A DNA stretch of 63,114 nt, taken from Desulfobacula sp. GTDB lineage: Bacteria > Desulfobacterota > Desulfobacteria > Desulfobacterales > Desulfobacteraceae. Every line of letters begins with the position of its first letter. The stretch's first letter is position 1. The stretch spans positions 1 through 63,114 of the forward strand of contig JAKIUJ010000001.1 of NCBI GenBank assembly GCA_021647625.1, written 5' to 3'. The notes beneath the pieces are model-generated. The model worked only from the letters and a program-made list of their open reading frames with translations, made no database searches and was not told the DNA's origin. Shown here one piece after another: positions 45,573-63,114 of the stretch. Position numbers and translations under genes: made by a program.

Positions 45573-45604
45573 TTGACACCCTTCTATTGTATACAGTATA
45601 CAAT
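45573..45604 (+). promoter_or_regulatory. Promoter with GntR-type operator 1
   Basis: TTGACA (45573-45578) followed by the perfect palindrome ATTGTATAC-A-GTATACAAT (45586-45604) over the -10 region. Confidence 0.8.
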
Positions 45605-45714
45605 TATGAGCGATTTGTCATGAAAATACAATAAATTCAATAGTTCATGGCTTTGAAAATAAGCAATAACGGCTTTAAAAACAAGCAACAAAACCCCTAC
45701 AAAGGACAGTGAAC

Positions 45715-47274
45715 ATGGCTGAAAAAACCCACGAAAAAGAACTTGAACGATTAAAGGAACTCCAGCAAAAAGCCTGTATGGGCGGCGGAGAAAAAGCCAT
45801 TAACCGCCACCGTTCCAGAGGAAAACTCACCGCACAAGAGAGGCTTGATCTTTTATTTGATCCGAAAAGTTTTGTTGAATTAAATGATTTGGCCCAAAGC
45901 CAGTGTGTGGATTTTGGCATGGAAAAAAGAGCGGTACCCGGAGACGGTGTTGTCATTGGCTATGGCACAATTGATGGACGAACCGTCTTTGCCTATGCCC
46001 AGGATGCCACTGTCCTAGGCGGGTCTGTGGGAACGATCCACGGGCAAAAGATATGCAGGATCATGGATGAAGCCTTAAAGGTAAAAGCGCCATTGATCGG
46101 CCTGAACGATTCAGGAGGCGGCCGGCTTCATGAAGGTTTTTTTGCATCTAAAGGTGTTGCAGGCATGTTCCTGCGAAATACGGCAGCCTCCGGAGTGATT
46201 CCACAGATCTCCTGCATCATGGGACCCTGCGCCGGTGTTTCAGTATACTCCCCTGCCCTGACCGATTTTATTATCATGGTGGAAAAACAAAGCCAGATGG
46301 TCATCACAGGACCCAAGATTATTAAAGATGTCACAGGAGAGACTGTTACTCTTGAAGAGCTTGGCGGATCTGATATTCATAGCAGTGTGACAGGTCAGGC
46401 CCATTTTGTTACCAAAGATGACAAAGAAAGCATTGAACTGATCCGGTATCTTTTGGGATTTTTACCTTCTAACCATGAAAAAGCCCCACCCTGCCTTGAG
46501 TGTAATGATGATCCGGAACGGAAAAATACGACGCTGACAGATATCGTACCGGCAAACTTCAAACAGGCCTATGACATGCATAAGGTCATAACCGAGGTTA
46601 CGGACAACAATGAATTTTTAGAAATTCTGCCCAGGTTTGCCCCGAACATCATCACAGGATTAGCCCGTATAGAGGGACAAAGTGTGGGTGTAGTTGCAAA
46701 CCAGCCCTCTCTTATGGCTGGTTGTCTGGATTATAATTCTTCTGATAAAGCGGCACGATTTATCAGATTTTGTGATTGTTTTAACATTCCTTTGGTCAAC
46801 TTAGTGGATGTTCCGGGATATTTCCCAGGAATTGACCAGGAACGGGCCGGTATTATCCGGCATGGCGCCAAAATGCTCTATGCTTATGCAGAAGCCACTG
46901 TACCCAAAATCACCCTTGCCTTAAGAAAAGAATACGGCGGCGCTGTCATGGCCATGTGCTGTGCCGGAATGGGTGTGGATTTAATGTTGGCCTGGCCTGT
47001 AGCCCAATTGGTTGTATTGGATACCGCAGCTGCCATAAACATTATATATAGAAAAGAAATCATGGCTGCTGAAGATCCGGAAAGCTTTAAGGCACAAAAA
47101 ATTGATGAATATAATTTTAAATATTCAAACCCGTTCCATGCTGCATCCAATATGCTGGTGGACCGGATTATTGAACCCGAAGAGACACGGACCCAGATCG
47201 CAAAAGGCCTTCGTATGCTCAAAAACAAAAAACGGCCCGAACCGTTCAGAAGACATGGAAATATACCCTTATAA
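45715..47274 (+). CDS. Acyl-CoA carboxylase/decarboxylase carboxyltransferase subunit (PccB/MmdA-like)
   Basis: RGKLTAQERL, PGDGVV, NDSGGGR, VDVPGYFPG, GIIRHGAKMLYAYAEATVPK, RHGNIPL. Confidence 0.93.
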   Translation: MAEKTHEKELERLKELQQKACMGGGEKAINRHRSRGKLTAQERLDLLFDPKSFVELNDLAQSQCVDFGMEKRAVPGDGVVIGYGTIDGRTVFAYAQDATVLGGSVGTIHGQKICRIMDEALKVKAPLIGLNDSGGGRLHEGFFASKGVAGMFLRNTAASGVIPQISCIMGPCAGVSVYSPALTDFIIMVEKQSQMVITGPKIIKDVTGETVTLEELGGSDIHSSVTGQAHFVTKDDKESIELIRYLLGFLPSNHEKAPPCLECNDDPERKNTTLTDIVPANFKQAYDMHKVITEVTDNNEFLEILPRFAPNIITGLARIEGQSVGVVANQPSLMAGCLDYNSSDKAARFIRFCDCFNIPLVNLVDVPGYFPGIDQERAGIIRHGAKMLYAYAEATVPKITLALRKEYGGAVMAMCCAGMGVDLMLAWPVAQLVVLDTAAAINIIYRKEIMAAEDPESFKAQKIDEYNFKYSNPFHAASNMLVDRIIEPEETRTQIAKGLRMLKNKKRPEPFRRHGNIPL

Positions 47275-47304
47275 CCAATTTTTAATGGATGGAGATGTAC
47301 AGAT

Positions 47305-48450
47305 ATGGATTTTAGACTTACTAAAGAACAAAAATATATTCAAAAAGCAGCCCGGGAATTTGCAAAAGGAGAATTGGCACAGGTTGGCCGCGAATATGAT
47401 TTAAACGAAACCTACCCGGAAGAGATTATTAAGAAAGCAAGAGAACTCGATTTGATCGGGCTTTTCATTCCTGAAAAATTCGGTGGCCCGGGGCTTGGCT
47501 ATCTGGAACAGGCCATTGTGTTGGAAGAATTGTGGAAAGTTGATCCTGGGATAAGCCAGCAACTGTGTTCTTTAACCTTTGGTGCAGAAGAATTTATTCT
47601 TTTCGGCACCCAGGATCAGGGTAAAAAGTTTCTTGAGCCGATTTTTACAGGCGATGCTGTCATGGGATTCGCCATCACAGAACCGGATGCGGGATCGGAT
47701 ACGCTTTCCGCCTCTACTCTGGCTGTTAAAGAGGGCAATGAATGGGTGATTAACGGTTCAAAGGTCATGATTGGAAACGGCACCAAGGGGACGTTCATGC
47801 TTATCTTTGCGCTCACTGATCCCGATGCAAAATCCAGTGCAAAACGACACAGTATCTTTATTGTTGAAACCGACAGAGAGGGATACACGGCAGAACCCAT
47901 GCATGGCAAAATGGGGCTGCGCTGTTCCGATACGGCAGCCATCTATCTGAACAATGTACGCGTACCCGAAGAAAACCTTCTGGGAAAACAGGGCAATGGT
48001 TTTCATCAACTCATGGCCTTTTTTGACAGAAGCCGGGCCTATGTCAGCGCCCATGGGGTTGGCCTTGCCCAGGGAGCCCTGGATATGGCAGTCAAGCATA
48101 TAAAGGGAAGAAAACAGTTTGGAAAACCCATTGGCAGTTTCCAGGGTGTCCAGTTTAAAGTGGCTGACATGGCTGTCAAAGTTGAGCTTGCCCGGAACAT
48201 TATGTACAAGGCGGCCTGGCTGTTGGATAACGGCACGCCGGATACCCACGTAACGGCCATGGCAAAAATGTATGCCGCCCGTATTGCTGTTGAGGTGGTT
48301 GATGAAGCGCTTCAGCTTCATGGTGGCTACGGATATTTTGATGATTATGATATTGAACGGTTTTACAGGGCTGCCAAGGTGCTTGAAATCTATGAAGGGG
48401 CCAAGGAAATTGAAAAAATGATTATTGGACGGACGATTATCGGGCTATAG
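47305..48450 (+). CDS. Acyl-CoA dehydrogenase
   Basis: FAITEPDAGSD, RKQFGKPIGSFQ, QLHGGYGY, IYEGAKEI. Confidence 0.95.
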   Translation: MDFRLTKEQKYIQKAAREFAKGELAQVGREYDLNETYPEEIIKKARELDLIGLFIPEKFGGPGLGYLEQAIVLEELWKVDPGISQQLCSLTFGAEEFILFGTQDQGKKFLEPIFTGDAVMGFAITEPDAGSDTLSASTLAVKEGNEWVINGSKVMIGNGTKGTFMLIFALTDPDAKSSAKRHSIFIVETDREGYTAEPMHGKMGLRCSDTAAIYLNNVRVPEENLLGKQGNGFHQLMAFFDRSRAYVSAHGVGLAQGALDMAVKHIKGRKQFGKPIGSFQGVQFKVADMAVKVELARNIMYKAAWLLDNGTPDTHVTAMAKMYAARIAVEVVDEALQLHGGYGYFDDYDIERFYRAAKVLEIYEGAKEIEKMIIGRTIIGL

Positions 48451-48938: not shown

Positions 48939-49000
48939 AAACAGCTTAAAATCCGTGCTTTAAATAAGTTCCATTCATTTAATTTTATAAGGATTAAACA

Positions 49001-50860
49001 ATGAAAGAAGAGTTTTTATTAGGAAACGGCGCTATGGCCATAGGCCTTCTTGAGGCTGGCTGTCAGATCATGACCTCTTATCCGGGCACCCCTTCTTCAG
49101 AAATTTTACCTGAAGTGGTCCGGTTTTCCAAAGCAAATGAATTAAACACGGCCATTGAATGGTCAGTGAATGAAAAAGTCGCCTTTGATAATGCATTTGC
49201 TGCTGCCATATCCGGTAAACGAGCGGCCTGCTGTATGAAAATGGTGGGCTTGAATGTGGCTGCTGACTCATTTATGTCTGCCGCCTATATCGGCAATATA
49301 GGCGGGCTTGTAATAATTTCCTGTGATGATCCAGGGCCTCACTCCTCCCAGACGGAACAGGATTCCCGCCTTATGGCCCGTCTTGGCAAAGTGCCTGTCA
49401 TGGATCCGGGAAGCCCTGAAGAAGCCCGGGAAATGATCAAAGCCGCTTTTGAACTGTCAGAACAATTCCAGGTACCTGTTCTGGTTCGGCCTGCTATCCG
49501 GGTGTGCCATGCCAGACAGAACATCAAGTATGACAAGCTTGAAAGCAATCTAACTAAAGCTGATTTTAAAAAAGAACCTACTCGTTGGGCCTCTACCCCG
49601 AAATTCAGATTTTTGCAGCACAAAGCCTTGAATGAAAAACACATTAAGATCAGTGAAAAATTTGATACCTTTGCACCCTTTAATATGAGTACCCGGAAAA
49701 AAGGGCAGTCTTATCCCTTTGGCATTGTCACAGGCGGTGTGCCCTCCGCTGTGATCCAGGACATGTTCGATGATCTTGGCAGAGACGATATCCCTGTCCT
49801 GAAACTTGGCGCGCCCTATCCTTTCCCTGAAAAACTGGCTGAAGGTTTCATGGATGCCTGTGATAAAGTGCTTGTTATCGAAGAAACAGACACGGTTATC
49901 GAGTACATGCTCAGAGACCGGCATAAAACTCTTGGAAGACTTTCAGGGCATGTACCCATGGAAGGCGAACTGATCCCGGAAAAAATAGAAGGACTGATCA
50001 ACAATGCATTGACTGATTGCGGCTTGACGCCATTATCAACCAGTGACTGTGGTGCTGAAGCAATGGAACTTATCGGTGGCCTTGAACTTCCCATGAGACG
50101 TCCGACCCTGTGCCCGGGCTGCCCCCACAGAGCCTCTTTTTATTCGATTCGAAAAGCCATGCCCAAAGCGATTTTTCCATCAGATATCGGGTGCTACACC
50201 CTTGGCAGCAATTTAGGTGTTGTGGACACCGTGCTTGATATGGGTGCCGGTATCACCATGGCATCCGGTTTTTACAATGCATACATTCAGGATGATGTAC
50301 ACAAACCCATCGTTGCTACCATGGGGGATTCGACATTCTTTCATTCCGGTACCACAGCGCTGATTAATGCTGTTTATAATGATTCAAGGTTCGTTCTGGT
50401 TATTCTGGACAACCATATCACCGCCATGACCGGTATGCAGCCGGCCATTACCCAGGGAGTAAGGGTGGATGGTAGAAAAGGTAATGCCATTTCATTGGAA
50501 ACCATTGTTAAAGGCTGCGGCATTGAATATCTAAAAGTGATTGATCCCTTTGATACAAAAAACATGATTCAGACAATAAAAGATGCCGCTGAATACGCGA
50601 ATGATCCGGATGGAGGCATCGCTGTCATCATATCCCGTCACCCCTGTGTGATAGGATTCAAGGATGAGGCCATTCCTGAAAAAATTGAGGTGTGTGTGTC
50701 TGATGATTGTGACGATTGCGGATTTTGCCACATGCGATTTGAGTGTCCTGCCATGGTTCGCAATAAAGAGACTGAAAAAACAGAGATTAACAAAGTACTC
50801 TGCGCTGAATGTGGTGTCTGTATTCAGATCTGTCCGAGAGATGCAGTGGAAAAAGCATAA
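49001..50860 (+). CDS. iorA: Indolepyruvate:ferredoxin oxidoreductase alpha subunit
   Basis: YPGTPSSE, EWSVNEKVA, HSSQTEQDSR, LCPGCPHR, DIGCYTLG, GDSTFFHSG, C-terminal ferredoxin. Confidence 0.93.
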   Translation: MKEEFLLGNGAMAIGLLEAGCQIMTSYPGTPSSEILPEVVRFSKANELNTAIEWSVNEKVAFDNAFAAAISGKRAACCMKMVGLNVAADSFMSAAYIGNIGGLVIISCDDPGPHSSQTEQDSRLMARLGKVPVMDPGSPEEAREMIKAAFELSEQFQVPVLVRPAIRVCHARQNIKYDKLESNLTKADFKKEPTRWASTPKFRFLQHKALNEKHIKISEKFDTFAPFNMSTRKKGQSYPFGIVTGGVPSAVIQDMFDDLGRDDIPVLKLGAPYPFPEKLAEGFMDACDKVLVIEETDTVIEYMLRDRHKTLGRLSGHVPMEGELIPEKIEGLINNALTDCGLTPLSTSDCGAEAMELIGGLELPMRRPTLCPGCPHRASFYSIRKAMPKAIFPSDIGCYTLGSNLGVVDTVLDMGAGITMASGFYNAYIQDDVHKPIVATMGDSTFFHSGTTALINAVYNDSRFVLVILDNHITAMTGMQPAITQGVRVDGRKGNAISLETIVKGCGIEYLKVIDPFDTKNMIQTIKDAAEYANDPDGGIAVIISRHPCVIGFKDEAIPEKIEVCVSDDCDDCGFCHMRFECPAMVRNKETEKTEINKVLCAECGVCIQICPRDAVEKA

Positions 50861-51638: not shown

Positions 51639-51676
51639 TTGACATGGAATGATTGTATACAGTATACCGTATACAA
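51639..51676 (+). promoter_or_regulatory. Promoter with GntR-type operator 3
   Basis: TTGACA (51639-51644) then TTGTATAC-A-GTATAC-C-GTATACAA (three GTATAC units). Confidence 0.8.
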
Positions 51677-51724: not shown

Positions 51725-52915
51725 ATGGAACATTTAAAAAAACTCACCGTATTATCCCTTGAGCAGGCAACGGTTGCACCCTATCTGACTTACCGCCTTG
51801 CCCAGGACGGCATGAACGTCATCCGGCTTGAGCATCCAATCTACGGTGATCCCAACCGATTCATCGGTGACAATGTATTGGACGAAAAACGGATGAACTC
51901 CTATTTTCTGTGCATCAACTCCGGAAAAAAAGCGTTGACCTTGAACCTTGCCGCACCTGAAGGGCAGGAGATTTTCAAAAAACTGCTCAAAGAGCTTGAT
52001 GTTGATATCTTTGTAACCAATCAACTGCCAAAAAATTATAACAAACTGGGCATTGCCTATGACCTGATGAAAGAAGTCAAACCCGACATTATCTGGCTCG
52101 GGCTGACCGGTTTTGGCCCGGATTCAAACGAAGGCGCATACGACCCCATTCTCCAGGCAAGATCAGGCTTGATGGAACTCACCGGAGAGGCTGATGGTGA
52201 TCCCCAGGTAACCGGCATTCCACTGCCGGATATGGGCACCAGTGAACATGGATACGGCCTTTTGATGAAAGCCTTGTTTAAACGTGCGGTTACAAAAAAA
52301 GGAACAAGAATCGATCTATCCATGTTTGAATCCACTGTCTCCTGGCTGACCGTCCCCATTGCGTTGTCCAAAAGTTTTGGTGCAAGTATTTCAAGGCGCG
52401 GGAACACCCATGAATTTTTCAGCCCGGTATCTGTTTACAAAACCAGCAATGGCTTTGTCTATCTTGCCTGCGGGAATGACCGCCAGTGGGAATCCATGGT
52501 TTCCCAGGATATGTTTAAATCGCTTGCCAAAGAAGAGTACAAGAAAAACAAGGGCAGAATTGATGATGTTGCAAATCTGAACAAGGCGATCAATGCCATC
52601 ACAAAACAGCATACATCTGAAGAATTGATTGATTTTTTTAACTCAATCACCGTACCGATTTCCAAGATCAAAAATGTAAATGAAGTGGTTGATGATCCAT
52701 TGGTTGCCAAAAAGATTTTGTCATCCACTGATCCAAAAACAGGTACAAAGGTTACCCTTGCACCCCCACCGAACATGACGCCATTTCTTGAAGAATGTGA
52801 CCGGAAGTTGAGCTTTCCACCACGATTTGGAGAACAGAACCAGAAAATTTATGGCGATCTTCTCGGGATTGATGAGGCCACGCTTTCTGAATATAAAGAA
52901 AAAGGGGTTATATAG
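51725..52915 (+). CDS. CaiB/BaiF family III CoA-transferase (IaaL-like candidate)
   Basis: LEQATVAPY, GDPNR, NSGKKALTLNL, TGFGPD, AYDPILQA, FPPRFGEQ; start moved to MEHLKK after GGAG. Confidence 0.9.
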   Translation: MEHLKKLTVLSLEQATVAPYLTYRLAQDGMNVIRLEHPIYGDPNRFIGDNVLDEKRMNSYFLCINSGKKALTLNLAAPEGQEIFKKLLKELDVDIFVTNQLPKNYNKLGIAYDLMKEVKPDIIWLGLTGFGPDSNEGAYDPILQARSGLMELTGEADGDPQVTGIPLPDMGTSEHGYGLLMKALFKRAVTKKGTRIDLSMFESTVSWLTVPIALSKSFGASISRRGNTHEFFSPVSVYKTSNGFVYLACGNDRQWESMVSQDMFKSLAKEEYKKNKGRIDDVANLNKAINAITKQHTSEELIDFFNSITVPISKIKNVNEVVDDPLVAKKILSSTDPKTGTKVTLAPPPNMTPFLEECDRKLSFPPRFGEQNQKIYGDLLGIDEATLSEYKEKGVI

Positions 52916-52945: not shown

Positions 52946-53632
52946 ATGAAGCTGAAAAACAGTTTTAGTCAAAGAAGGTCACTAGGACAGGATGTATTTG
53001 AGTATTTAAAAAATGCCATCATTGACCAGACCATTGAACAGGGTCAGCGCCTTGTTGAGAGCAAAATTTCCGATATGTTAGGCATCAGCAGAACTCCATT
53101 GCGTGAAGCCCTGCATAAGCTGGAAAGAGAAGACTGGATAGAGAAAATCCCGTCCGGCGGCTATATGGTGGTCACACTGACCAAAGATGACATTGAGCAT
53201 ACTTTTGGCATCCGAAGTGTTCTTGAGGCTTATGCTGCAAGATTGGCTGCCGAGAACCACACAAACAAAGAGCTGATTCCTTTGGAAAAAAAGATGAAGG
53301 AATATCAAAAGTGTTTAGAAACCAAAAATAGTGATAAGCTTCAAAAGATCAATACCGAATTCCATGACCTGCTTTACAGTTTAAGCGGCAGTCCCAAGCT
53401 GATTAAAATGATCAACCAGCTTAGAGCACAGATCTCCCGCTTCAGACAAATCATCTTAAAGCAGATTGCCTTTGCCCATAAAAGCAACCAGGACCATATC
53501 AAAATGATGGATGCCATAAAAAAAAGGGACGGGGATGCTGTGGAACTGCTTGTCAGAAATCATATCATTAAGGGCAAAACAGCGGTATTAAGCCAGCTTA
53601 CCAAAGAGGAAGAAGAAAAGAAAAGTGCTTAA
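52946..53632 (+). CDS. GntR-family regulator with FCD domain
   Basis: LVESKISDMLGISRTPLREAL, RSVLE, NTEFH, NHI. Confidence 0.93.
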   Translation: MKLKNSFSQRRSLGQDVFEYLKNAIIDQTIEQGQRLVESKISDMLGISRTPLREALHKLEREDWIEKIPSGGYMVVTLTKDDIEHTFGIRSVLEAYAARLAAENHTNKELIPLEKKMKEYQKCLETKNSDKLQKINTEFHDLLYSLSGSPKLIKMINQLRAQISRFRQIILKQIAFAHKSNQDHIKMMDAIKKRDGDAVELLVRNHIIKGKTAVLSQLTKEEEEKKSA

Positions 53633-54632
53633 GATTGATGACATACGATCGGGCAGCCACCTGGCGGGTGCCAGGCTGATCCGGCTTATTGAAGACAATG
53701 AGCCATCGGCCATTGAGCTGTTGAAATCTTTATACGCCAATACCGGTAAAGCTTTTATCATCGGCATCACAGGCTCGCCCGGTGTTGGCAAGTCAACGCT
53801 GATTGATGCTTTGATTTTTCAATTTCGTGAACTTTCCAAAAAAGTTGCCGTCATTGCTGTTGACCCCACAAGCCCCTATACCGGCGGTGCTATTTTAGGA
53901 GATCGGTTGAGAATGCAGCGCCATGCCACCGACCCTGATGTCTTTATCCGGTCCATGGCATCCCGGGGTCAGACAGGGGGTCTCTCCCGTGCAGCAAAAG
54001 ATGCAACAACCGTTCTGGATGCCATGGGATTTGATATCATCATTATTGAGACGGTTGGTGCAGGACAGGCCCAGTTTGATATTGCAAGCCTTGCCCATTG
54101 TGTCGGCATTGTGTCTATCCCTTCAAGCGGAGATGGTATCCAGGCAGTAAAGGCTGGTATTTTAGAAACAGGAGACATCTTTATTGTCAACAAATCTGAC
54201 ACACCCGATGCAGATCTTAGCTTTATTGAACTTTGCGGCATGCTGGAGATGAGACAATCACGAGAATTCCTACGGACATTACCGCCGGGATTACCGCCTA
54301 AAACAGACAACGGCCATCCGACCTGGCAGCCAAAAGTTTTAAAAACCATTGCCCAGGACGGCACAGGGATCAAAGAACTAACCCACACTTTTTTGTCTTA
54401 TTTGGATTTCATGAAAAAAAACAATCTTTTGAAATCAAAACAAAAAACCCAGGAGAAACTTTATTTTAAAACCCTTTTAAAAGATCTGATATTAGAAAAA
54501 ATCAATGGGTTCATGGACGAATCAAAATATGTTGAAACCGCTTTAAATGATATTCAATTAAATATTACAGATCCAATTTCCGCAGCACAGCATGTGGTTA
54601 ATAAAACAATTGGACATAAGATAAAGGAATAA
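53625..54632 (+). CDS. meaB: MeaB/ArgK GTPase chaperone for a B12 mutase
   Basis: GITGSPGVGKST, AVDPTSPYTGGAILGDRLRM, IETVGAGQ, VNKSD. Confidence 0.93.
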   Translation: MLKIDDIRSGSHLAGARLIRLIEDNEPSAIELLKSLYANTGKAFIIGITGSPGVGKSTLIDALIFQFRELSKKVAVIAVDPTSPYTGGAILGDRLRMQRHATDPDVFIRSMASRGQTGGLSRAAKDATTVLDAMGFDIIIIETVGAGQAQFDIASLAHCVGIVSIPSSGDGIQAVKAGILETGDIFIVNKSDTPDADLSFIELCGMLEMRQSREFLRTLPPGLPPKTDNGHPTWQPKVLKTIAQDGTGIKELTHTFLSYLDFMKKNNLLKSKQKTQEKLYFKTLLKDLILEKINGFMDESKYVETALNDIQLNITDPISAAQHVVNKTIGHKIKE

Positions 54633-54637: not shown

Positions 54638-55036
54638 ATGGAAACAAAAAACAAAATTCGGGTACTCATTGCCAAACCCGGCCTGGATGGGCATGACAAG
54701 GGAGCAAAAATTGTTTGTCTGGCCTTAAGAGATGCAGGCTTTGAAGTTATCTACTCAGGTCTTCACCAGAGTCTTGACCAGATCATCCGGACAGCCACCC
54801 AGGAAGCCGTGGATGTAATTGGTTTAAGCATTATGTCCGGCGCACATCTTCCTATATCTGAAAAACTGATCGCCATGATGAATAAAAACGGTCTTGGGGA
54901 CATTAAACTTACCGTGGGCGGTGTTATCCCGAACAGGGATATCCCAACGCTCAAAGAGATGGGTGTGGCACAAGTTTTTCCCGGCGGTACCTCCTTTGAC
55001 AAGATTACCACCGGTATGAAACTATTGTTTAAATAA
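54638..55036 (+). CDS. Acyl-CoA mutase small (cobalamin-binding) subunit
   Basis: AKPGLDGHDKGAK (DxHxxG), GLSIMSGAH, VGGVIP. Confidence 0.95.
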   Translation: METKNKIRVLIAKPGLDGHDKGAKIVCLALRDAGFEVIYSGLHQSLDQIIRTATQEAVDVIGLSIMSGAHLPISEKLIAMMNKNGLGDIKLTVGGVIPNRDIPTLKEMGVAQVFPGGTSFDKITTGMKLLFK

Positions 55037-55086: not shown

Positions 55087-56742
55087 ATGGGTGTTGCAAA
55101 GTATATAAAAGATGAACGCGGGGCAATCAAAGAGGTAACCTACCAGTCCGGTATCAAGGTCAAACCGGCATATGGTCCTGAAGATCTTGAAAATAAAGGT
55201 TTTGAATATGAAAAAGATCTGGGTGCGCCGGGTGAATATCCATTTACGCGAAGTATCCATCCCGAAAGCTATAGAAGCCGTGCCTGGACCACAAGGCAAT
55301 ATACAGGATTCGGCACACCACAAGAGACAAACGAACGGTTCAAACTGATGATCAAAAACGGCCAGAACGGTTTGAACGTGGCCTTTGATCTGCCCACCCA
55401 GATGGGATATGACTCTGACCACCCCCTGGCACAGGGAGAGGTTGGCCGTGTGGGCATGGCCATTGATTCATTAAAAGATTTTGAGACCGCCTTTGCAGGG
55501 ATACCCTTGGATAAAATCGGATCAGGCCTGACCATAAACGGGGTGGCCACCATCATGATGGCCATGTACCAGGCCACGGCGGAAAAGTTCGGATATGCAA
55601 AAGACAAAATCTCCACCACTCCCCAGAATGATATTTTAAAAGAGATGATTGGTCGCGGCGCCTGGATTTTCCCTGTTGAACATGGGGTCAGACTTGTTGG
55701 CGACAGTATTGAATACGCAGTAAAGGAACTGCCCCGGTCCAACCCGGTCAGCATCTGCGGATATCATATCAGAGAGTCCGGTGCCACGCCTGCCCAGGAA
55801 ATCGCCTATGCATTTGCCATTGCAAAAGCATACATTGACAACGTCATGGAACGTGACATCGATCCATCTGATTTTGTGGGTCGTTTTTCCTTTAACTTTA
55901 ATGTTTACGGTAATATGTGGGAACAGATCGCTAAATTCCGTGCTGCCCGAAAGCTATGGGCCAGGATGCTCAAAGAGGAGTATGGCGTAACAGATAAGAA
56001 AAAACTGTTCCTGCGCGGACTTTTCGGCGGCGGCGGATCAGGGCTCACCAAAGAGCAGCCTGAAAACAATATCATGCGCGGAGCGTATTATGCACTTGGT
56101 GCTGCATTATCCGGTGCCCAGACCACAGCCCTTTGTTCTTTTGATGAAGCCTATACCATCCCCACGCCCCGGTCTGCGCTTTTATCCTTGAGGACCCTTG
56201 AAATGCTCATGGATGAAGTGGGGCTAAGAGATACGGTAGACCCATTGGCCGGCTCCTATTTTATCGAGACTATCACCCTTGAGATGGAAGAAAAAATCAT
56301 CGAAGAGATGAAGGAGGTCGAAAAATGGGGCGGCATGGTCAAGAGTATCTCCAATGGTTTTATCCAGCGCAAGGTATCCCGCCAGGCCTATGAATTTGAA
56401 AAGGGTATGCAAGCCGGGGTTTACAAAAAAGTGGGTGTAACACCGGGGGGCCAGAGGGATCAAGCGGACGGCGAAGACGACACTCAAAAAACAGACGTAG
56501 AACTGCATGAATACAATGAAGACTGGGCTATAAAATCAAAAGCCAATTTAGAAGAGTTGCGGCGCACAAGAAACGATAAAAAGGTGAAAGACAGTCTTGC
56601 CGCACTTGAAAAGGCAGCCAAGGGTTCCGACAACGTTATGCCGCATCTTGTTAAATGCTGTCATTCATACGCCACAGTTGGAGAGATGGCCGGGGTTTTC
56701 AGGGATGTTTTTGGCGAATGGAAAGAACCTGAGTTTTATTAG
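55087..56742 (+). CDS. Acyl-CoA mutase large subunit (methylmalonyl-CoA mutase family, non-canonical active site)
   Basis: PGEYPFTR, RQYTGFG, AFDLPTQMGYDSD, QNDILKE, GYHIRE, DPLAGSY; LRGLFGGGGSGLT replaces LRTHxQTSG. Confidence 0.92.
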   Translation: MGVAKYIKDERGAIKEVTYQSGIKVKPAYGPEDLENKGFEYEKDLGAPGEYPFTRSIHPESYRSRAWTTRQYTGFGTPQETNERFKLMIKNGQNGLNVAFDLPTQMGYDSDHPLAQGEVGRVGMAIDSLKDFETAFAGIPLDKIGSGLTINGVATIMMAMYQATAEKFGYAKDKISTTPQNDILKEMIGRGAWIFPVEHGVRLVGDSIEYAVKELPRSNPVSICGYHIRESGATPAQEIAYAFAIAKAYIDNVMERDIDPSDFVGRFSFNFNVYGNMWEQIAKFRAARKLWARMLKEEYGVTDKKKLFLRGLFGGGGSGLTKEQPENNIMRGAYYALGAALSGAQTTALCSFDEAYTIPTPRSALLSLRTLEMLMDEVGLRDTVDPLAGSYFIETITLEMEEKIIEEMKEVEKWGGMVKSISNGFIQRKVSRQAYEFEKGMQAGVYKKVGVTPGGQRDQADGEDDTQKTDVELHEYNEDWAIKSKANLEELRRTRNDKKVKDSLAALEKAAKGSDNVMPHLVKCCHSYATVGEMAGVFRDVFGEWKEPEFY

Positions 56743-56875: not shown

Positions 56876-59014
56876 TTGGAAAAAGCGACTTATAGACTTG
56901 GATGTGATATTGGCGGCACGTTTACCGATTTTGTCCTGGTCAATAATATAACGGGTGAGTTTCATACAAACAAATGCCTGACCACACCTTCTGATCCATC
57001 GGATGCTATTGAACAGGGCATCAGGGAACTTGCACAAATTTTGCCGGGTTTCATGGATAATGTTGAAGAGATCATCCATGGGACCACACTGGTGATCAAT
57101 GCTATTATTGAAAGGAAAGGTGCCAAAACCGGCCTGATCACTACAAAAGGTTTCAGGGATATTTTAGAACTGGGCCGCGAAAAACGGTATGATGCCTATG
57201 ATATTTTCAGTGAATACCCCGAGCCCATTGTGCCCCGGTCAGACAGGGCACAAATTGATGAACGGCTGACCTTTGACGGCAAAGTGCTCAAAAGTGTTGA
57301 TGAAAATGAAGTGATGAGAGTTCTGGAAAAATTCAAAAAAGACGGGATAGAGTCTGTTGCTGTCTGCTTTATTAATTCCTATGAAAACGCTGTAAATGAA
57401 AAAAAGATAAAACAGATCATTGAAGAGGTTGCACCGGAACTGTTTTTATCTGCATCATTTGAAGTTTTACCTGAAATAAAAGAATATGAACGCACCTGCA
57501 CCACTGCTGTTAATGCCTATGTAAAACCCATTACCTATTGGTATTTAAATAAACTGATCAAAAGACTTGGCACCATCGGGTTTAACGGTAAATTTTTCAT
57601 CATGCTGTCTTCAGGGGGAATCACTTCCATTGAAACAGCAAAAAATTTTCCCGTCAGAATCATTGAATCAGGACCCACAGCCGCTGTTATAGCCTCCCAG
57701 CATTATGGGAAAATGTTCAATATCAAGGATATGTTCTGCTTTGATATGGGCGGCACCACAGCCAAATCATGTTTGATTCAGGATGGCCATGCAGGGCTTG
57801 TATCCACATTTGAGGTGGGGCGCGTGCAGCGGTTTCAAAAAGGCAGCGGCTTGCCCATCCAGGTGCCGGTTGTAGATCTGATGGAGATTGGTGCAGGCGG
57901 TGGATCCATTGCTAAAATAAGCAGTCTCGGGTTATTACAGGTTGGCCCTGAAAGTGCGGGAGCCGATCCCGGGCCTGCCTGTTACAAACAGGGCGGCGAC
58001 AATCCCACAGTCACTGATGCCGACCTTGTATTGGGATATCTTGATCCTGACTTCTTTTTGGGCGGAACCATGACTCTTGACATTGAATTGTCTAAAAAAG
58101 CCATCAAAGAAAAAATCGCAGACCCGCTTGGCACAACAATGGTTGACGCGGCTTTTGGTATCCATGATCTGATTAATGAAACCATGGCTGCGGCTGCCAA
58201 AACCCATATTGCTGAAAAAGGCGGCAACCCCAACATTGTTACCATGTCGGCCTTTGGCGGTGCCGGACCTGTTCATACTTACGGACTGGCAAAAAAAATC
58301 GGTGCACCGGCCATTATGGTTCCACCCCTTGCAGGTGTGGGATCAGCCCTTGGTTTCTTTACTGCGCCCGTGGCATTTGACCTTTCACGAAGTCACAGAA
58401 AAGTGTTAGATGAAGCCGACTTTAAAGAGATTGAACTTCTTTTTAACGGACTCGAAAAAGAGAGTGCAAAAATCTTAGAAGGTGCCCAGAGCGGTGATGA
58501 AATCATTTATGAAAGAACCCTTTTAATGCGCTTTGTGGGCCAGGGTGCTGAGATCGATCTATCCATCGAACTTAAAGATTTCCAAAAATTTTCAAAAAAA
58601 GAGATCCGAACCATGTTTGATGATGAGTATAAACGGCTTTACGGCAGAACCAGCACTCAATCACCTGTGGAGTTTGTAACATTCAAGGTAAGGGCAAGTC
58701 TTCCTAAAAAACCATTTTCAATTTCAAAATTGACTACAAGAAACCGTGATCTTTTGACCTGTATCAAGGGCCGGAGACAGGCATTTTCCGTAATCAAAAA
58801 AGACTATATCCCGTTTACCGTTTATGACCGGTCCAAGCTCTTTCCCGATGAACAATTTGACGGGCCCGACATTATTGAGGAACGTGAATCCACCATCGTA
58901 ATCGGAGAAGATGCCAAAGCCCGGGTGGATGAATTCGGTTTTATCTGGATCGACAGCATTAAATCCGGTGGGCCCGATTCAAATAGAAAAGATTCCGGCG
59001 GAGGGCATAAATAA
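56876..59014 (+). CDS. Hydantoinase A / oxoprolinase family ATP-dependent amidohydrolase subunit
   Basis: DIGGTFTD, HGTT, ESGP, DMGGTT, IGAGGGS, GPESAGADPGP; TTG start after AAGGAG. Confidence 0.93.
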   Translation: MEKATYRLGCDIGGTFTDFVLVNNITGEFHTNKCLTTPSDPSDAIEQGIRELAQILPGFMDNVEEIIHGTTLVINAIIERKGAKTGLITTKGFRDILELGREKRYDAYDIFSEYPEPIVPRSDRAQIDERLTFDGKVLKSVDENEVMRVLEKFKKDGIESVAVCFINSYENAVNEKKIKQIIEEVAPELFLSASFEVLPEIKEYERTCTTAVNAYVKPITYWYLNKLIKRLGTIGFNGKFFIMLSSGGITSIETAKNFPVRIIESGPTAAVIASQHYGKMFNIKDMFCFDMGGTTAKSCLIQDGHAGLVSTFEVGRVQRFQKGSGLPIQVPVVDLMEIGAGGGSIAKISSLGLLQVGPESAGADPGPACYKQGGDNPTVTDADLVLGYLDPDFFLGGTMTLDIELSKKAIKEKIADPLGTTMVDAAFGIHDLINETMAAAAKTHIAEKGGNPNIVTMSAFGGAGPVHTYGLAKKIGAPAIMVPPLAGVGSALGFFTAPVAFDLSRSHRKVLDEADFKEIELLFNGLEKESAKILEGAQSGDEIIYERTLLMRFVGQGAEIDLSIELKDFQKFSKKEIRTMFDDEYKRLYGRTSTQSPVEFVTFKVRASLPKKPFSISKLTTRNRDLLTCIKGRRQAFSVIKKDYIPFTVYDRSKLFPDEQFDGPDIIEERESTIVIGEDAKARVDEFGFIWIDSIKSGGPDSNRKDSGGGHK

Positions 59015-60738
59015 TGACAACCAATAAAAAAAAATTCGACCCGATTACATTAGAAATCCTATGGAAAAGGCTTATTTCCATCGTAGACGAATCTGACGCA
59101 TCGGTTATCAGGACCGCTTTTTCATCTCTTTTACGGGATGCCCACGATTATACCTGCATGTTTACTGACAGTCGCGGACAGGAACTTGTACAAGGAACCT
59201 TATGCACACCCGGCATGGCCGGTGCCATGGCATTGGGAATGAAAAAAATTGTCAAATCCATTCCCCTTGAAGACTACAACGAAGGCGATGTATTTATTAT
59301 CAATGACCCCTGGCTTCTGGCCGGACATTTAAACGATGTCTGCGTATGGAGCCCCATATTTTTCAAGGGCAAACCTGTGGCATTTACCGCATGCATATTC
59401 CATCATACCGATATTGGCGGAAGAACAGCTTCCGATAACCGGGATGTTTACGCAGAAGGCCTTTACATCCCTTTAACAAAACTTTATGACGCAGGCAAGC
59501 TCAATGAAGCACTTGTTAATTTAATTGGCTGGAATGTACGAACCTCAACAGAGTTTGACGGGGATATCCGTTCACAGGTTGCTGCCAATCATATCTGTTC
59601 CCAAAAAATCATAGAGATGATGGAAGACGAAGGGCTTGATACCCTTGATGACCTTGCCGACGATATTATCGACCGGACTGAAAAAAGCATGCGGTCCGCC
59701 ATTGAAAAAATTCCCGACGGGACCTATCCACACGAGGGCTTAATCGAAGGTGCAGGCGACAAACCTGATATCCCCATCAAACTGACGGTAAAAGTCACGG
59801 GTTCAAAAATTCATGTTAATTTTGACGGGTCATCCAAACAGGTCCACTGGGGTGTGAATGTGGTTTACAATTTCACATACGCATACGTGTTCATGGCCAT
59901 CAAATCAGCCTTTGATCCCGGCATTCCCATTAATGAAGGCGCGATCCGCCCCATCACCATGTCAGCACCAAAAGGAACTATTGTCAATTGTACATTCCCG
60001 GCAGCCGTGGCAGCACGAATGGTGGTGGGTCATTTTATGACTGAAATGGTGTTTAATGCCCTGGGCAAAGCGGCCCCCGATAATATTATTGCCGGTTCCG
60101 GCGGCACACCGGCCCAGACCAATATCTTTCATGGCTCTTTTGCAAATGGCAAACCATGGCACACCATGATTATCCGTGGCGGCGGAATGGGTGCTTCTTC
60201 AAGGTTTGACGGTCACCATTGTGCTATTTTCCCGGCCAACGGGGCAAACACACCGGTTGAAATCCTTGAAAGCGATACAACCATGATTGTTGAAGAGCGA
60301 GGACTGATTATGGATTCGGGTGGTCCTGGTAAACAGCGCGGCGGTATTGGCAGACGGATGATCATCCGCTCGCCCGAAGCTAATGGAAACAATGCTGTTG
60401 GCACAACCTCCATAGCCGTACAGGCAGGACGTTATATTTACCCGCCCCAAGGCATATTTGAAGGTAAAGACGGGGCAAAAGCCCAGTATCTGAAAAATGG
60501 AGAAAACGCAGATCCAAGCACACTTACCTTTTGTGACCCAGGCGATAGAATCACATTTATCAGCGCCGGGGGCGGGGGATACGGCGATCCTTTTGAACGG
60601 GACCCAAAAGCTGTGGAACGCGATGTACAATACGGTTATGTCAGTATAGAAAAAGCCAAGTCAGACTATGGTGTTATCATTAAGCCGGACTCTTTAACGC
60701 TTGATATGAAGGCTACACAAAAATTGCGAGCTAAATAA
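59014..60738 (+). CDS. Hydantoinase B / oxoprolinase family subunit
   Basis: DPITLEIL, INDPW..GHLND, HHTDIGG, NTPVE, DSGGPGKQRGG, GGGGYGDP. Confidence 0.93.
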   Translation: MTTNKKKFDPITLEILWKRLISIVDESDASVIRTAFSSLLRDAHDYTCMFTDSRGQELVQGTLCTPGMAGAMALGMKKIVKSIPLEDYNEGDVFIINDPWLLAGHLNDVCVWSPIFFKGKPVAFTACIFHHTDIGGRTASDNRDVYAEGLYIPLTKLYDAGKLNEALVNLIGWNVRTSTEFDGDIRSQVAANHICSQKIIEMMEDEGLDTLDDLADDIIDRTEKSMRSAIEKIPDGTYPHEGLIEGAGDKPDIPIKLTVKVTGSKIHVNFDGSSKQVHWGVNVVYNFTYAYVFMAIKSAFDPGIPINEGAIRPITMSAPKGTIVNCTFPAAVAARMVVGHFMTEMVFNALGKAAPDNIIAGSGGTPAQTNIFHGSFANGKPWHTMIIRGGGMGASSRFDGHHCAIFPANGANTPVEILESDTTMIVEERGLIMDSGGPGKQRGGIGRRMIIRSPEANGNNAVGTTSIAVQAGRYIYPPQGIFEGKDGAKAQYLKNGENADPSTLTFCDPGDRITFISAGGGGYGDPFERDPKAVERDVQYGYVSIEKAKSDYGVIIKPDSLTLDMKATQKLRAK

Positions 60739-60932: not shown

Positions 60933-62222
60933 ATGAAAAAGACGTTCATGCCCGATTTTAAGGATACTGGGCAGCTGTTTGACCATCAATTAAAAGGATT
61001 AAAATGGACAATTGCCCACGCGTATAAAGGATCACAATTTTATAAATCCCAATTTGAAAAAGCGGGCATTGTCCCGGAGGATATAACATCCCTTGATGAT
61101 ATAAGACGTCTTTCCTTTACCACGGGCAACGATCTCAAGACAGGATATCCATTACCTTTATTATCCGTTCGACAAGCTGATGTGGTCAGAATCCATGCAT
61201 CCTCCGGTACAACCGGAAAACGCAAAGTACTGTCCTATACACAAAACGACCTTGATACTTGGTTTGACATGTTTGCCCGGTGTTATGAAATGGCAGGATT
61301 AACAACAAAAGACAGGGTGCAGATAGCTGTGGGTTACGGTGTCTGGACAGCGGGCATGGGATTTCAGCTGGGATGTGAACGCCTGGGTGCCATGGCCATT
61401 CCTGTGGGTCCCGGCAACATTGACATGCAATGCCGATTCTTAGTGGACCTTCAGTCCACTGTCTTTTGCTGTACAGCTTCCATGGCCCTGCTTATGGCTG
61501 AAGAAGTCAATAAACGCGGTATCAAAGATAAAATCAATCTTAAAAAAATCATATTGGGTTCCGAACGTAGTTCCTCTGCCATGCGGGCAAAGATAAAGGA
61601 TTTATTAGGACTTGAAGACATGTTTGATATCACAGGGATGACGGAACTTTATGGTCCTGGAGCCGGGATAGACTGCCATAAACACGAAGGAATTCACTAT
61701 TGGGCAGATAAATACATCCTTGAAATTCTCAATCCGGAAACTCTGGAACCGGTTAAAGACGGTGAAATAGGTGAGATGGTGGTGACAACGCTTTGCAAAG
61801 AGGCCTCTCCCTTGATTCGCTACAGAACACGAGATTTGACACGAAAAATCACCCAGTCCTGTTCATGTGGCAATATTCTTTTTATGCACGATAAAATCAT
61901 GGGTCGGTCCGATGACATGATCATCTTGAAAGGGGTTAATATTTACCCCGGCCAGATTGATGAAGTGCTGTCGTCCATTCCCGAAGTGGGCAGTGAGTAC
62001 CAGCTCCATCTTGAACGTAAAAGTGACGGCAAAGATTATATGACGATCAAGGCTGAAGCCCGCCAAGGATTTGATGTGAACCATGCAAAAGAAATAATGG
62101 ATAAAATAAAGAAAGCTGTGCATTCAAAGATTATGGTCAGCTGCGCCGCAGACCTGTGTGCATACGGTAAGTTGCCACGGGTTGCCGGCAAATCCCAACG
62201 CATCTTTGATAACCGCAGTTAA
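60933..62222 (+). CDS. Phenylacetate-CoA ligase family (PaaK-like aryl-acetate CoA ligase)
   Basis: RIHASSGTTG, GMTELYGPG, PLIRYRTRDLT, GRSDDM, GVNIYP. Confidence 0.92.
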   Translation: MKKTFMPDFKDTGQLFDHQLKGLKWTIAHAYKGSQFYKSQFEKAGIVPEDITSLDDIRRLSFTTGNDLKTGYPLPLLSVRQADVVRIHASSGTTGKRKVLSYTQNDLDTWFDMFARCYEMAGLTTKDRVQIAVGYGVWTAGMGFQLGCERLGAMAIPVGPGNIDMQCRFLVDLQSTVFCCTASMALLMAEEVNKRGIKDKINLKKIILGSERSSSAMRAKIKDLLGLEDMFDITGMTELYGPGAGIDCHKHEGIHYWADKYILEILNPETLEPVKDGEIGEMVVTTLCKEASPLIRYRTRDLTRKITQSCSCGNILFMHDKIMGRSDDMIILKGVNIYPGQIDEVLSSIPEVGSEYQLHLERKSDGKDYMTIKAEARQGFDVNHAKEIMDKIKKAVHSKIMVSCAADLCAYGKLPRVAGKSQRIFDNRS

Positions 62223-62311
62223 CAGCCAGGGGCTGACCCTGGTATAGCACCCGGTCATGGCCCACAATAAAACATGAAAGACCAATTGGGTTTGAAAAGT
62301 TCTTTCATATA
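62220..62311 (+). repeat. Degenerate copy of repeat family C
   Basis: Starts TAACAGCCA at the ligase stop codon; ends AAAACATGAAAGAC...GTTCTTTCATATA. Confidence 0.5.
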
Positions 62312-62333
62312 AAAAATAAAAAAGGAACCCAGT

Positions 62334-63114
62334 ATGAAACATTTTACCTACATTGCCCCAAGCACCGTAGAAGAGGCAATCTCCTTTTACGGTCAACACA
62401 GTGAAACCTCAAAATTTATGGCCGGGGGAACAGACGTAATTGTCAAAGCCAAAGAAGGCTGGCTGGAACCCGACTATCTGATTTCACTAAAAAAGATAAA
62501 AGAGATGAATGAACTTCATAAAAATGAAGCCACCAAAGAGTTGTCCATCGGTGCCACAGTGACCCACGCAACCCTGGAAAAATCACTCATGATCCAGAAT
62601 GAATATCCCATTATTTATGATGCGGTTTCCAATATCGGCTCCCTTCAGGTTAGAAATGTCGGGACCATTGGGGGCAATCTGATTAATGCAGTTCCCTCTG
62701 CAGATGGTGCGATTCCCCTGATTGCTCTGGATGGCGTGGCCCTGCTCCACGGCCCTGATGGAGAACGTTCGGCAGATGTAAAAGATTTGTTCATCGAACC
62801 ATACAAGACCATCCTGAAAAAAGGGGAACTTCTTAAAAAAATAACCATTCCCCCCCAGGAAGCCAACACCGGATCTGCATATATTAAGTTTGGCCGAAGA
62901 GCAGCCATGGAACTTCCGCTTATCGGCATAGGCGTTTTACTGACACTTGATGAGACCCAAAAAACCTGCACCAAGGCAAGAATTGTCCTAGGAGTAGCAG
63001 CACCCACCCCCATGAGAGCCTTTGATGCTGAAAAATTTCTGGTTGGCAAAAAGATCACTGCAGATGTTTTGGTAAAGGCCGGCCAGATCGCAGCTGATGA
63101 GTCAAAAGTTCGGG
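62334..63114 (+). CDS. Xanthine dehydrogenase family FAD-binding (medium) subunit; runs off the window
   Basis: Read manually: MKHFTYIAPSTVEEA...AGGTD...IGSLQVRNVGTIGGNL..AVPSADG. Confidence 0.9.
   Translation, partial: MKHFTYIAPSTVEEAISFYGQHSETSKFMAGGTDVIVKAKEGWLEPDYLISLKKIKEMNELHKNEATKELSIGATVTHATLEKSLMIQNEYPIIYDAVSNIGSLQVRNVGTIGGNLINAVPSADGAIPLIALDGVALLHGPDGERSADVKDLFIEPYKTILKKGELLKKITIPPQEANTGSAYIKFGRRAAMELPLIGIGVLLTLDETQKTCTKARIVLGVAAPTPMRAFDAEKFLVGKKITADVLVKAGQIAADESKVR

What the first reader, a model, noticed from the sequence alone, without database searches (positions are those of the whole stretch)
45573..63114. Candidate anaerobic tryptophan / indole-3-acetate degradation cluster in a sulfate reducer
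Seen: co-oriented genes for a carboxyltransferase, acyl-CoA dehydrogenase, IorAB, family III CoA-transferase, GntR, MeaB, two-subunit B12 mutase, hydantoinase A and B, aryl-acetate CoA ligase and a xanthine-dehydrogenase-family subunit, linked by three copies of one operator. Established: the iaa pathway of denitrifying Azoarcus/Aromatoleum uses a Mo-hydroxylase (IAA to 2-oxo-IAA), an ATP-dependent hydantoinase-like ring opener, a CoA ligase and transferase, a B12 mutase (2-aminophenylsuccinyl-CoA to 2-aminobenzylmalonyl-CoA), an acyl-CoA dehydrogenase and a GntR regulator. Inference: this is a strict-anaerobe version, extended upstream by indolepyruvate:ferredoxin oxidoreductase so that tryptophan can feed it through indoleacetyl-CoA, and ending at 2-aminobenzoyl-CoA.
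Basis: partly seen in the sequence, partly recalled or inferred. Interest (0 to 1): 0.88.

Follow-up and report, generated by a model that had tools for sequence, protein, structure and literature searches.

The report
Auxin-degradation cluster with swapped decarboxylase
This sulfate-reducer genome carries the gene set known for oxygen-free breakdown of the plant hormone indoleacetate, likely fed from tryptophan, but no gene for the pathway's usual CO2-releasing dehydrogenase was found, and a co-regulated biotin-type decarboxylase plus an ordinary dehydrogenase likely do that step instead.

Summary
Observation confirmed: 13 co-oriented genes and three operator sites; the cluster continues on contigs C64 and C312. 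It is an iaa (anaerobic indoleacetate) cluster: the mutase is 55% identical to an Aromatoleum bremense protein, most genes of an Aromatoleum-type iaa operon find their best genome hit here, and that operon carries the same operator. Strict-anaerobe iaa operons were already predicted (PMC8360864). Two assignments fail: the acyl-CoA dehydrogenase has YEG, not IaaF's GGG, and the ligase is PaaK-type, not IaaB. What is new: of 50 mutase-bearing relatives, 35 have this carboxyltransferase, 11 have IaaF, none both. A biotin-type decarboxylase plus a conventional dehydrogenase therefore likely replaces IaaF, as in anaerobic alkane degradation. Against: in 3 distant genomes the carboxyltransferase co-occurs with an IaaF-sister enzyme; no hydratase (IaaP) or Trp transaminase was found in the regulon; nothing is shown biochemically. 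The scan noted this same variant before on another genome (e1-4760608). New variant of a known pathway; interest 0.5.

The parts
45573..45602 (+). TTGACA (-35-like) and operator 1, TGTATACAGTATACA (45588-45602); predicted IaaR-type GntR repressor site
   Evidence: same motif before iaaR in Aromatoleum-type loci
45715..47274 (+). Carboxyltransferase (PccB/MmdA fold; ORF can start at GTG 45709); predicted (2-aminobenzyl)malonyl-CoA decarboxylase
   Evidence: exclusive with IaaF in 50 genomes; altered pocket motifs in 14 of 14 orthologues
47305..48450 (+). Conventional acyl-CoA dehydrogenase (IYEG motif), not IaaF; predicted 3-(2-aminophenyl)propionyl-CoA dehydrogenase
   Evidence: GGG rule from PMC8360864
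48637..48651 (+). Operator 2, TGTATACCGTATACA, upstream of iorA
49001..50860 (+). IorA, indolepyruvate:ferredoxin oxidoreductase alpha family (639 bits, cut-off 651)
   Evidence: one of 4 paralogues in the genome
50885..51454 (+). IorB family subunit
51639..51675 (+). TTGACA and operator 3, tandem-doubled (51654-51675)
51725..52915 (+). Family III CoA-transferase, IaaL counterpart
   Evidence: 38% and best genome hit to the L085 gene; 282 bits vs at most 165 to solved structures
52946..53632 (+). GntR/FCD regulator, IaaR counterpart
   Evidence: shared operator
53625..54632 (+). MeaB GTPase chaperone of the mutase
   Evidence: TIGR00750 over cut-off
54638..55036 (+). B12-binding mutase subunit, IaaG counterpart
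   Evidence: 49%
55087..56742 (+). Mutase large subunit, IaaH orthologue
   Evidence: 55% to A. bremense WP_169202953; 640 bits vs 410 to the best solved mutase
56876..59014 (+). Hydantoinase/oxoprolinase A (TTG start), IaaC counterpart
   Evidence: 34%, 398 bits to L085 gene vs 348 to other family members
59014..60738 (+). Hydantoinase B, IaaE counterpart
   Evidence: 29%
60933..62222 (+). PaaK-type aryl-acetate CoA ligase; likely functional stand-in for IaaB, not its orthologue
62334..63114 (+). FAD subunit of the XDH-family Mo hydroxylase (IaaIJK counterpart); 2Fe-2S and Mo subunits follow on G000:C64
   Evidence: Mo subunit 45-47%
12504..14069 (-). Separate acyl-CoA ligase, the genome's best hit to IaaB (38%); possible second indoleacetate ligase, no operator seen
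   Evidence: its homologues lie in or near the cluster in L051 and L066

Best explanation
This is an iaa-type gene cluster under one shared operator in a sulfate reducer, which likely degrades indoleacetate without oxygen, likely fed from tryptophan through IorAB, and in which a predicted biotin-type decarboxylase plus a conventional acyl-CoA dehydrogenase likely replace the decarboxylating dehydrogenase IaaF, for which no gene was found. Proposed route: indolepyruvate -> indoleacetyl-CoA (IorAB; inferred), or indoleacetate taken up by a TRAP transporter and activated by the ligase (inferred); hydroxylation at C2 by the Mo enzyme, ATP-dependent lactam opening by the hydantoinase pair, CoA shift by the transferase and B12 rearrangement to (2-aminobenzyl)malonyl-CoA (inferred by orthology to the iaa pathway); then carboxyl removal by the carboxyltransferase to 3-(2-aminophenyl)propionyl-CoA and oxidation by the YEG dehydrogenase to 2-aminocinnamoyl-CoA (inferred from the swap pattern); beta-oxidation and thiolysis to 2-aminobenzoyl-CoA and entry to the class II benzoyl-CoA route (thiolase and BamB genes shown; the hydration/oxidation genes not identified). 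The GntR protein likely represses the three promoters. The carboxyl group would pass to a biotin carrier encoded elsewhere.
For: Orthology: locus L085 (mutase 97% to A. bremense) has the order GntR-thiolase-ligase-HydA-HydB-GGG dehydrogenase-mutase pair-XDH trio-CoA-transferase and an exact 22-nt match to the published reverse iaaF primer; its HydA/HydB lengths fit IaaC 707 and IaaE 564 aa (PMC8453981). Of its 11 genes from GntR to the CoA-transferase, 9 have their best genome hit in this cluster (C112, C64, C312; GntR only marginally); the two exceptions are IaaF and IaaB. Regulation: the same motif (one mismatch allowed) occurs in 23 of 80 Aromatoleum-type loci, at the iaaR end where that is covered. 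Swap: no locus among 60 holds both modules; 14 show carboxyltransferase+YEG enzyme, 12 show ETF with or beside a GGG enzyme. Whole genomes: 35 of 50 carboxyltransferase only (71-90%), 11 IaaF only, 0 both, 4 neither; a second IaaF query rang in 2 of 2 controls and above background in 0 of 36 carboxyltransferase genomes. The GGG enzymes group with Aromatoleum-type IaaF (SH-aLRT 98), the window's enzyme does not. The two modules need 4 changes on a quick mutase tree, at least 2 forced. Where the carboxyltransferase-dehydrogenase pair is detached (G009, G044) it keeps the operator. Its pocket motifs differ from PccB and are conserved in 14 of 14 orthologues, while a separate 50-52% PccB paralogue exists. 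Partners exist in the genome: 4 biotin/lipoyl domains, an OadB/GcdB-type Na+ pump subunit, an epimerase, BamB. Mutase followed by carboxyltransferase is the proposed alkane route (PMC5606693). IorA/B lie within 10 kb of the mutase in 29 of 60 loci, and an unrelated long IOR-family gene follows 9 of 80 Aromatoleum-type operons.
Against: No activity, growth or expression data. In a phylum-wide sample only 3 of 80 mutase-bearing genomes had this carboxyltransferase (71-72%); in two of them it is not beside the mutase, has no operator and faces a GGG dehydrogenase that is sister to IaaF, all three hold such an enzyme, and none has a YEG orthologue above 51%: so the carboxyltransferase does not always exclude a GGG enzyme. 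The 50 genomes are mostly close kin and incomplete, so the exclusion rests on few independent events. Hydantoinase identity to IaaCE is low (34/29%) and only a little above other family members. No biotin carrier, epimerase, ETF, IaaP or Trp transaminase lies in the window's cluster or behind an operator. IorA is just under, IorB well under the family cut-offs, and IOR enzymes take several aryl-pyruvates (established knowledge).
Confidence: 0.65

Rival explanations
1. It is an iaa cluster, but the carboxyltransferase and YEG dehydrogenase do something else (for example re-carboxylation, CO2 shuttling, or handling of a side product such as a cyclised quinolinone), and the IaaF step is done by an enzyme not recognised here.
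For: Carboxyltransferase homologues sit beside or co-occur with an IaaF-sister GGG enzyme in G748, G795, G772. Detached IaaF genes exist: 5 of 5 distant genomes that first looked IaaF-free had one elsewhere.
Against: Two different IaaF queries found none in 36 carboxyltransferase genomes, among them one with a 4.8 Mb contig; 0 of 11 IaaF genomes in the close set keep the carboxyltransferase; dehydrogenase and carboxyltransferase travel as one operator-led unit.
Confidence: 0.15
2. The cluster degrades free indoleacetate only (or mainly another aryl substrate enters through IorAB); tryptophan is not a feed.
For: No Trp transaminase in the regulon; IorAB missing beside the mutase in several complete-looking loci (L037, L042, L048, L051, L053) and in the 18 distant regions; operator-led TRAP transporter on C77 suggests uptake of an acid.
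Against: iorA has its own operator here and in relatives; the IOR product indoleacetyl-CoA is the first intermediate drawn in PMC8360864 Fig. 1 legend; a second IOR subfamily is linked to 9 of 80 Aromatoleum-type operons.
Confidence: 0.12
3. The cluster has drifted to another substrate (a substituted indole, oxindole, quinolinone or phenylsuccinate-like compound), which explains the changed hydantoinase, ligase and dehydrogenase.
For: Low identity of hydantoinase (34/29%), FAD subunit (31%) and GntR (26%) to the Aromatoleum-type genes, a different ligase family, no IaaP.
Against: The same hydantoinase and ligase types (79-92% identical to the window's) sit in IaaF+ETF clusters, which fit the iaa operons described for sulfate reducers; Aromatoleum-type hydantoinases and IaaB-like ligases occupy the same slots in L223, L224, L226, L230; mutase active-site motifs are the same in both module types; operator conserved.
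Confidence: 0.08

Closest known systems
iaa operon of Aromatoleum aromaticum / Azoarcus evansii (anaerobic indoleacetate degradation; Ebenau-Jehle 2012, Schuehle 2016, both not held and known here through PMC8360864 and PMC8453981)
   Same: Mutase pair, CoA-transferase, hydantoinase pair, XDH-family trio, thiolase, GntR and the operator motif.
   Different: No IaaF: carboxyltransferase + YEG dehydrogenase instead; PaaK-type ligase, not IaaB; MeaB and two-subunit IorAB inside the regulon; TRAP rather than the IaaM binding protein in relatives; no IaaP found.
Predicted iaa operons of strict anaerobes (Desulfatiglans anilini, strain NaphS2, Desulfocarbo, Ferroglobus placidus; PMC8360864)
   Same: Sister loci of this cluster carry exactly the described EtfB-EtfA-IaaF(GGG) set, with mutases 82-87% identical to the window's in the close loci.
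   Different: The window's type lacks the ETF-IaaF set and has the carboxyltransferase-dehydrogenase pair.
Anaerobic alkane route after fumarate addition (alkylsuccinyl-CoA mutase, then carboxyltransferase-type decarboxylation; passage in PMC5606693)
   Same: B12 rearrangement of a substituted succinyl-CoA followed by a carboxyltransferase and ordinary beta-oxidation.
   Different: Aryl (2-aminobenzyl) substituent, substrate made from indole by hydroxylation and lactam opening; no glycyl-radical enzyme in the cluster.
PccB / MmdA / transcarboxylase 12S carboxyltransferases, and MccB (long-chain variant, PMC5187497)
   Same: Fold family; 578 bits to T. maritima PccB.
   Different: FFASKGVAGMF, GPCAGVSVYS and GGAVMAM replace VDALAGYGEIF, GPCAGGAVYS and GGAYIAM; no biotin carrier or carboxylase gene beside it.

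Membership tests
iaa pathway cluster | IaaGH-type B12 mutase | tested here: met
   55% to A. bremense protein and L085; 640 bits vs 410 to best solved mutase; shared glycine-rich motif
iaa pathway cluster | IaaL-type family III CoA-transferase | tested here: met
   38%, best genome hit, 282 vs at most 165 bits
iaa pathway cluster | IaaCE-type ATP-dependent hydantoinase pair | tested here: inconclusive
   Family and position met; 34/29% identity, 398 vs 348 bits is a thin margin for orthology; no tree built
iaa pathway cluster | IaaIJK XDH-family Mo hydroxylase | tested here: met
   FAD subunit in window, 2Fe-2S and Mo on C64; Mo subunit 45-47%
iaa pathway cluster | IaaF decarboxylating dehydrogenase (GGG) | tested here: not met
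   IYEG motif; separate clade; no IaaF in genome with three queries
iaa pathway cluster | IaaB-type indoleacetate-CoA ligase in the cluster | tested here: not met
   Cluster ligase scores 11.5 bits against the L085 ligase; a 38% homologue lies at 12504-14069
iaa pathway cluster | IaaA thiolase and IaaP hydratase/dehydrogenase | tested here: inconclusive
   Thiolase tail on C312; IaaP-like protein in 4 of 50 genomes, not in G000, which is 92.9% complete with a gap here
iaa pathway cluster | GntR regulator IaaR | tested here: met
   GntR/FCD, 26-28% only, but same operator motif in both groups
iaa pathway cluster | Induction by and turnover of IAA | not testable with these tools
   Needs cultures and proteomics
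IaaF (benzylmalonyl-CoA dehydrogenase) for gene 47305-48450 | GGG in place of YEG; BMal clade | tested here: not met
Housekeeping PccB/MmdA for gene 45715-47274 | Score over the MmdA cut-off and canonical pocket motifs, partner biotin carrier beside it | tested here: not met
   736 bits vs cut-off 999; motifs differ; the 52% paralogue on C310 is the one beside the biotin-carrier gene
Biotin-dependent decarboxylase/transcarboxylase | Carboxyl transfer to a biotin carrier, shown in vitro | not testable with these tools
   Carriers and a Na+ pump subunit exist elsewhere in the genome; partnership untested
Indolepyruvate:ferredoxin oxidoreductase IorAB | Alpha and beta subunit families; preference for indolepyruvate | tested here: inconclusive
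   Best family hits but under cut-offs (639/651; 121/206); substrate not testable

The most novel reading that the evidence does not exclude
Desulfobacula-type sulfate reducers run a rewired tryptophan/auxin pathway: the carboxyl group of (2-aminobenzyl)malonyl-CoA is not lost through IaaF but passed by a new aryl-specific carboxyltransferase to a biotin carrier and used for Na+ pumping or pyruvate carboxylation, and the downstream block seen in relatives (second HcrABC-like Mo enzyme with an Fe-S flavin subunit, HemL-like transaminase, saccharopine-dehydrogenase-like protein beside the thiolase) replaces IaaP or is the long-missing deaminating step for 2-aminobenzoyl-CoA.
Probability: 0.22. 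Interest if true: 0.72.

Novelty: new variant of a known kind. Interest (0 to 1): 0.5.

Why it matters
It names a testable new enzyme activity (an arylmethylmalonyl-CoA decarboxylase/carboxyltransferase, also of interest as an aryl extender-unit carboxylase) and offers a way round the open question in PMC8360864 of how IaaF is re-oxidised: many sulfate reducers seem to drop IaaF. It defines the likely IaaR operator across two phyla. And the IaaH-type mutase was found in 86 of 401 sampled genomes of this phylum, so anaerobic indoleacetate/tryptophan degradation may be a common, overlooked function of sulfate reducers and their kin.

Tried and rejected
The primary iaa papers (Ebenau-Jehle 2012, Schuehle 2016) and the Ferroglobus amino-acid paper were not held, so their gene maps were not seen. 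A. aromaticum proteins themselves were not retrieved: one search reached only close relatives, plasmid searches gave at most 44%, and 0 of 401 genomes in the phylum of G001 rang (no positive control); L085 and the A. bremense mutase served as stand-ins. The promoter/terminator scan was at chance level. I first read the ECH-like hits beside the mutase in family f18 as a crotonase-type decarboxylase; they are full-length hydratase/dehydrogenase fusions and those genomes have a detached IaaF: rejected. The apparent exclusion of IaaP and the HemL-like transaminase (IaaP-like 4 of 50, transaminase 41 of 50, both 1) is weak: only G005 has IaaP in the cluster and it follows lineage; kept as a lead only. 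The long repeats inside the cluster are genome-wide elements, not part of the regulon. The careful mutase tree did not finish; the quick tree is cited. No structure or complex prediction was run, as a pass would follow from likeness to solved carboxylases.


Full report
Observation. The window is contig C112 of a 4.27 Mb, 92.9% complete genome with dsrA; the closest mutase relatives are labelled Desulfobacula or Desulfobacteraceae. The operator is real: the core GTATAC-N-GTATAC occurs five times in the genome, four times here (before the carboxyltransferase, before iorA, and doubled before the CoA-transferase) and once on C77 before a TRAP transporter; chance expectation is under 0.5. Two sites lie 9 nt after a perfect TTGACA, the place of a repressor over the -10 region (inference). 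The cluster runs on in C64 (tail of the FAD subunit, 2Fe-2S, Mo subunit) and, after an assembly gap, C312 (thiolase tail and two further genes).

Link to the known pathway. I could not fetch A. aromaticum proteins directly. A profile-free search of 50% representatives showed a small group of mutases at 50-62% above a background of about 44% or less for full-length matches; one led to a named Aromatoleum bremense protein, 55% identical to the window's mutase. With it I fetched 80 loci. L085, 97% to that protein, has the order GntR, thiolase, ligase, hydantoinase A and B, GGG dehydrogenase, mutase small and large, XDH trio, CoA-transferase, binding protein, and matches the published reverse iaaF primer exactly. 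Nine of the 11 genes from GntR to the transferase have their best genome hit in this cluster. The same operator motif, one mismatch allowed, stands in 23 of the 80 loci, at the GntR end where the contig reaches it. The mutase keeps the RQY, QNDILKE..R and GYH motifs of dicarboxylate mutases and has a glycine-rich stretch where methylmalonyl-CoA mutase has HCQTSG, as does the L085 enzyme (residue roles recalled). So the iaa assignment stands, best for mutase, transferase and Mo subunit, weakest for the hydantoinase (34/29%).

Where it departs. PMC8360864 (parts 1-5 of 6 read) states that all IaaF orthologues carry GGG in place of YEG, and that predicted iaa operons of sulfate reducers and Ferroglobus hold IaaF with a dedicated ETF. 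The window's dehydrogenase has IYEG and falls outside the IaaF clade. Among 60 relatives' loci two forms alternate in the same cluster: carboxyltransferase plus YEG enzyme (14 loci, one more with the dehydrogenase at its edge) or ETF with the GGG enzyme (12 loci); none has both. I gave 50 of the 60 loci to whole-genome searches (cap; ten mostly short loci left out): 35 genomes have the carboxyltransferase at 71-90% and no IaaF, 11 have IaaF and only the 49-52% paralogues, 4 have neither. Because a detached, divergent IaaF turned up in 5 of 5 distant genomes, I repeated the test with that subclade: both controls rang, and of 36 carboxyltransferase genomes one gave a 39% background hit and none more. 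On a quick mutase tree (45 labelled rows) the labels need four changes, at least two forced, so the swap is not one single split, but kin dominate and the Fisher value overstates. Where the pair has moved away (23 kb in G009, another contig in G044) it keeps the operator. None of the 80 Aromatoleum-type loci has a carboxyltransferase.

Mechanism. After the B12 rearrangement the pathway must turn (2-aminobenzyl)malonyl-CoA into 2-aminocinnamoyl-CoA, one CO2 and two electrons. IaaF does this in one step. A carboxyltransferase that removes the carboxyl and a YEG dehydrogenase that oxidises the resulting 3-(2-aminophenyl)propionyl-CoA give the same sum, and this order (mutase, carboxyltransferase) is the proposed alkane route (passage in PMC5606693). 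The protein differs from PccB at three motifs near the acyl pocket, two Tyr becoming Val among them, in 14 of 14 orthologues; pocket changes are what widen MccB (passages of PMC5187497; mapping by eye, and the Phe that MccB loses is kept here). Biotin carriers, a Na+-pump beta subunit and an epimerase are encoded elsewhere, so the carboxyl could be pumped, transferred to pyruvate or just released; none is shown. IorAB has its own operator and would deliver indoleacetyl-CoA, the first intermediate in that paper's Fig. 1 legend; it flanks the mutase in 29 of 60 close loci. The PaaK-type ligase alternates with IaaB-like ligases in distant loci. BamB (1247 bits to the solved enzyme) and a cut-off oah fragment give an outlet for benzoyl-CoA-type products.

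Against. All of this is genomic inference. In an even sample of the phylum, 86 of 401 genomes carry the mutase; of 80 tested (five weakest left out for the cap) 48 gave an IaaF-like hit at the threshold used, which misses a divergent subclade, and only 3 had the carboxyltransferase. In those three it co-occurs with a GGG enzyme sister to IaaF, without operator or YEG orthologue. So the variant is mostly confined to the Desulfobacula group and the L051/L053 lineage, and the carboxyltransferase is not always an IaaF substitute. No IaaP, Trp transaminase, ETF or biotin carrier was found in the regulon.

Novelty. Strict-anaerobe iaa operons are in print. I recall, without having seen the text, that a tryptophan-IOR-iaa route was proposed for Ferroglobus placidus. 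The carboxyltransferase swap did not appear in ten full-text searches (listings only, apart from the papers named), but the two primary papers and their supplements were not available and may show it. The scan's note e1-4760608 reached the same reading on another genome; I had stated mine before that look-up, checked the IaaF loss and co-regulation here, and found no operator-led crotonase in this genome. It is an AI note, not independent evidence. PMC4539516 (passages) confirms that a 2-aminobenzoyl-CoA reductase step is described for A. evansii.

Verdict. Observation confirmed; interpretation partly supported. It works like the iaa pathway and is a variant of it, failing the IaaF and IaaB membership features. 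Confidence in the full mechanism 0.65, in the iaa assignment alone about 0.9. Interest 0.5.

Noticed in passing
L001 (G000:C77) 4223-10535, minus strand: AdmH-like MIO enzyme (466 bits to AdmH, TSG motif), class III aminotransferase, small regulator, beta-keto acid cleavage enzyme and acyl-CoA ligase in a row: a possible phenylalanine -> beta-phenylalanine -> benzoylacetate -> benzoyl-CoA route. Inference only; distribution and literature not checked.
   Followed up: partly
L001 (G000:C77) 1042-4095: Fifth copy of the operator core before a TRAP transporter; the orthologous TRAP lies directly upstream of the carboxyltransferase in G038: likely part of the regulon.
   Followed up: partly
L067, L069, L072, L079-L082; G000:C312:1-3048: Downstream of the cluster in relatives: TRAP, a second XDH-family trio (best solved match 4-hydroxybenzoyl-CoA reductase, 437 bits), YqeB, thiolase, saccharopine-dehydrogenase-like protein, HemL-like class III transaminase. 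The second trio, YqeB and this TRAP were not found in G000. A HemL-like gene beside a thiolase is an acyl-CoA beta-transaminase in PMC3149608; amine entry (tryptamine) or deamination are alternatives.
   Followed up: partly
window 51452-51582, 60740-60851, 9111-9240, 7270-7402, 10077-10184: About 130-nt palindromic intergenic repeat, 136 places on 101 contigs, strong hairpin (z -5.7); REP/MITE-like.
   Followed up: partly
window 56750-56855, 32938-33050; partial copies near 48833-48940 and 62260-62320: Second repeat family, 69 places on 57 contigs, weaker fold.
   Followed up: partly
L216, L217 (G748, G795), L208, L281 (G772): Carboxyltransferase homologue (71-72%, same pocket motifs) divergent from, or in the same genome as, a GGG dehydrogenase sister to IaaF, away from the mutase; several such GGG paralogues per genome. 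Unexplained.
   Followed up: partly
L085-L164: Long single-chain IOR-family gene downstream of 9 of 80 Aromatoleum-type iaa operons: tryptophan entry may also hold for denitrifier-type clusters.
   Followed up: no
L175, L176, L054 (G047): In a 1.9 Mb genome the whole cluster is kept in order but interrupted by many unrelated genes, several looking like restriction/toxin-antitoxin cargo.
   Followed up: no
window 44734-44793: 15-nt tandem repeat inside the DsbB-like gene (KNLSN repeats).
   Followed up: no
alignment: All IaaF-clade rows share a Glu in E-[IV]-R on the helix before the conserved Arg, absent from the other dehydrogenases shown; a possible second diagnostic of IaaF.
   Followed up: no
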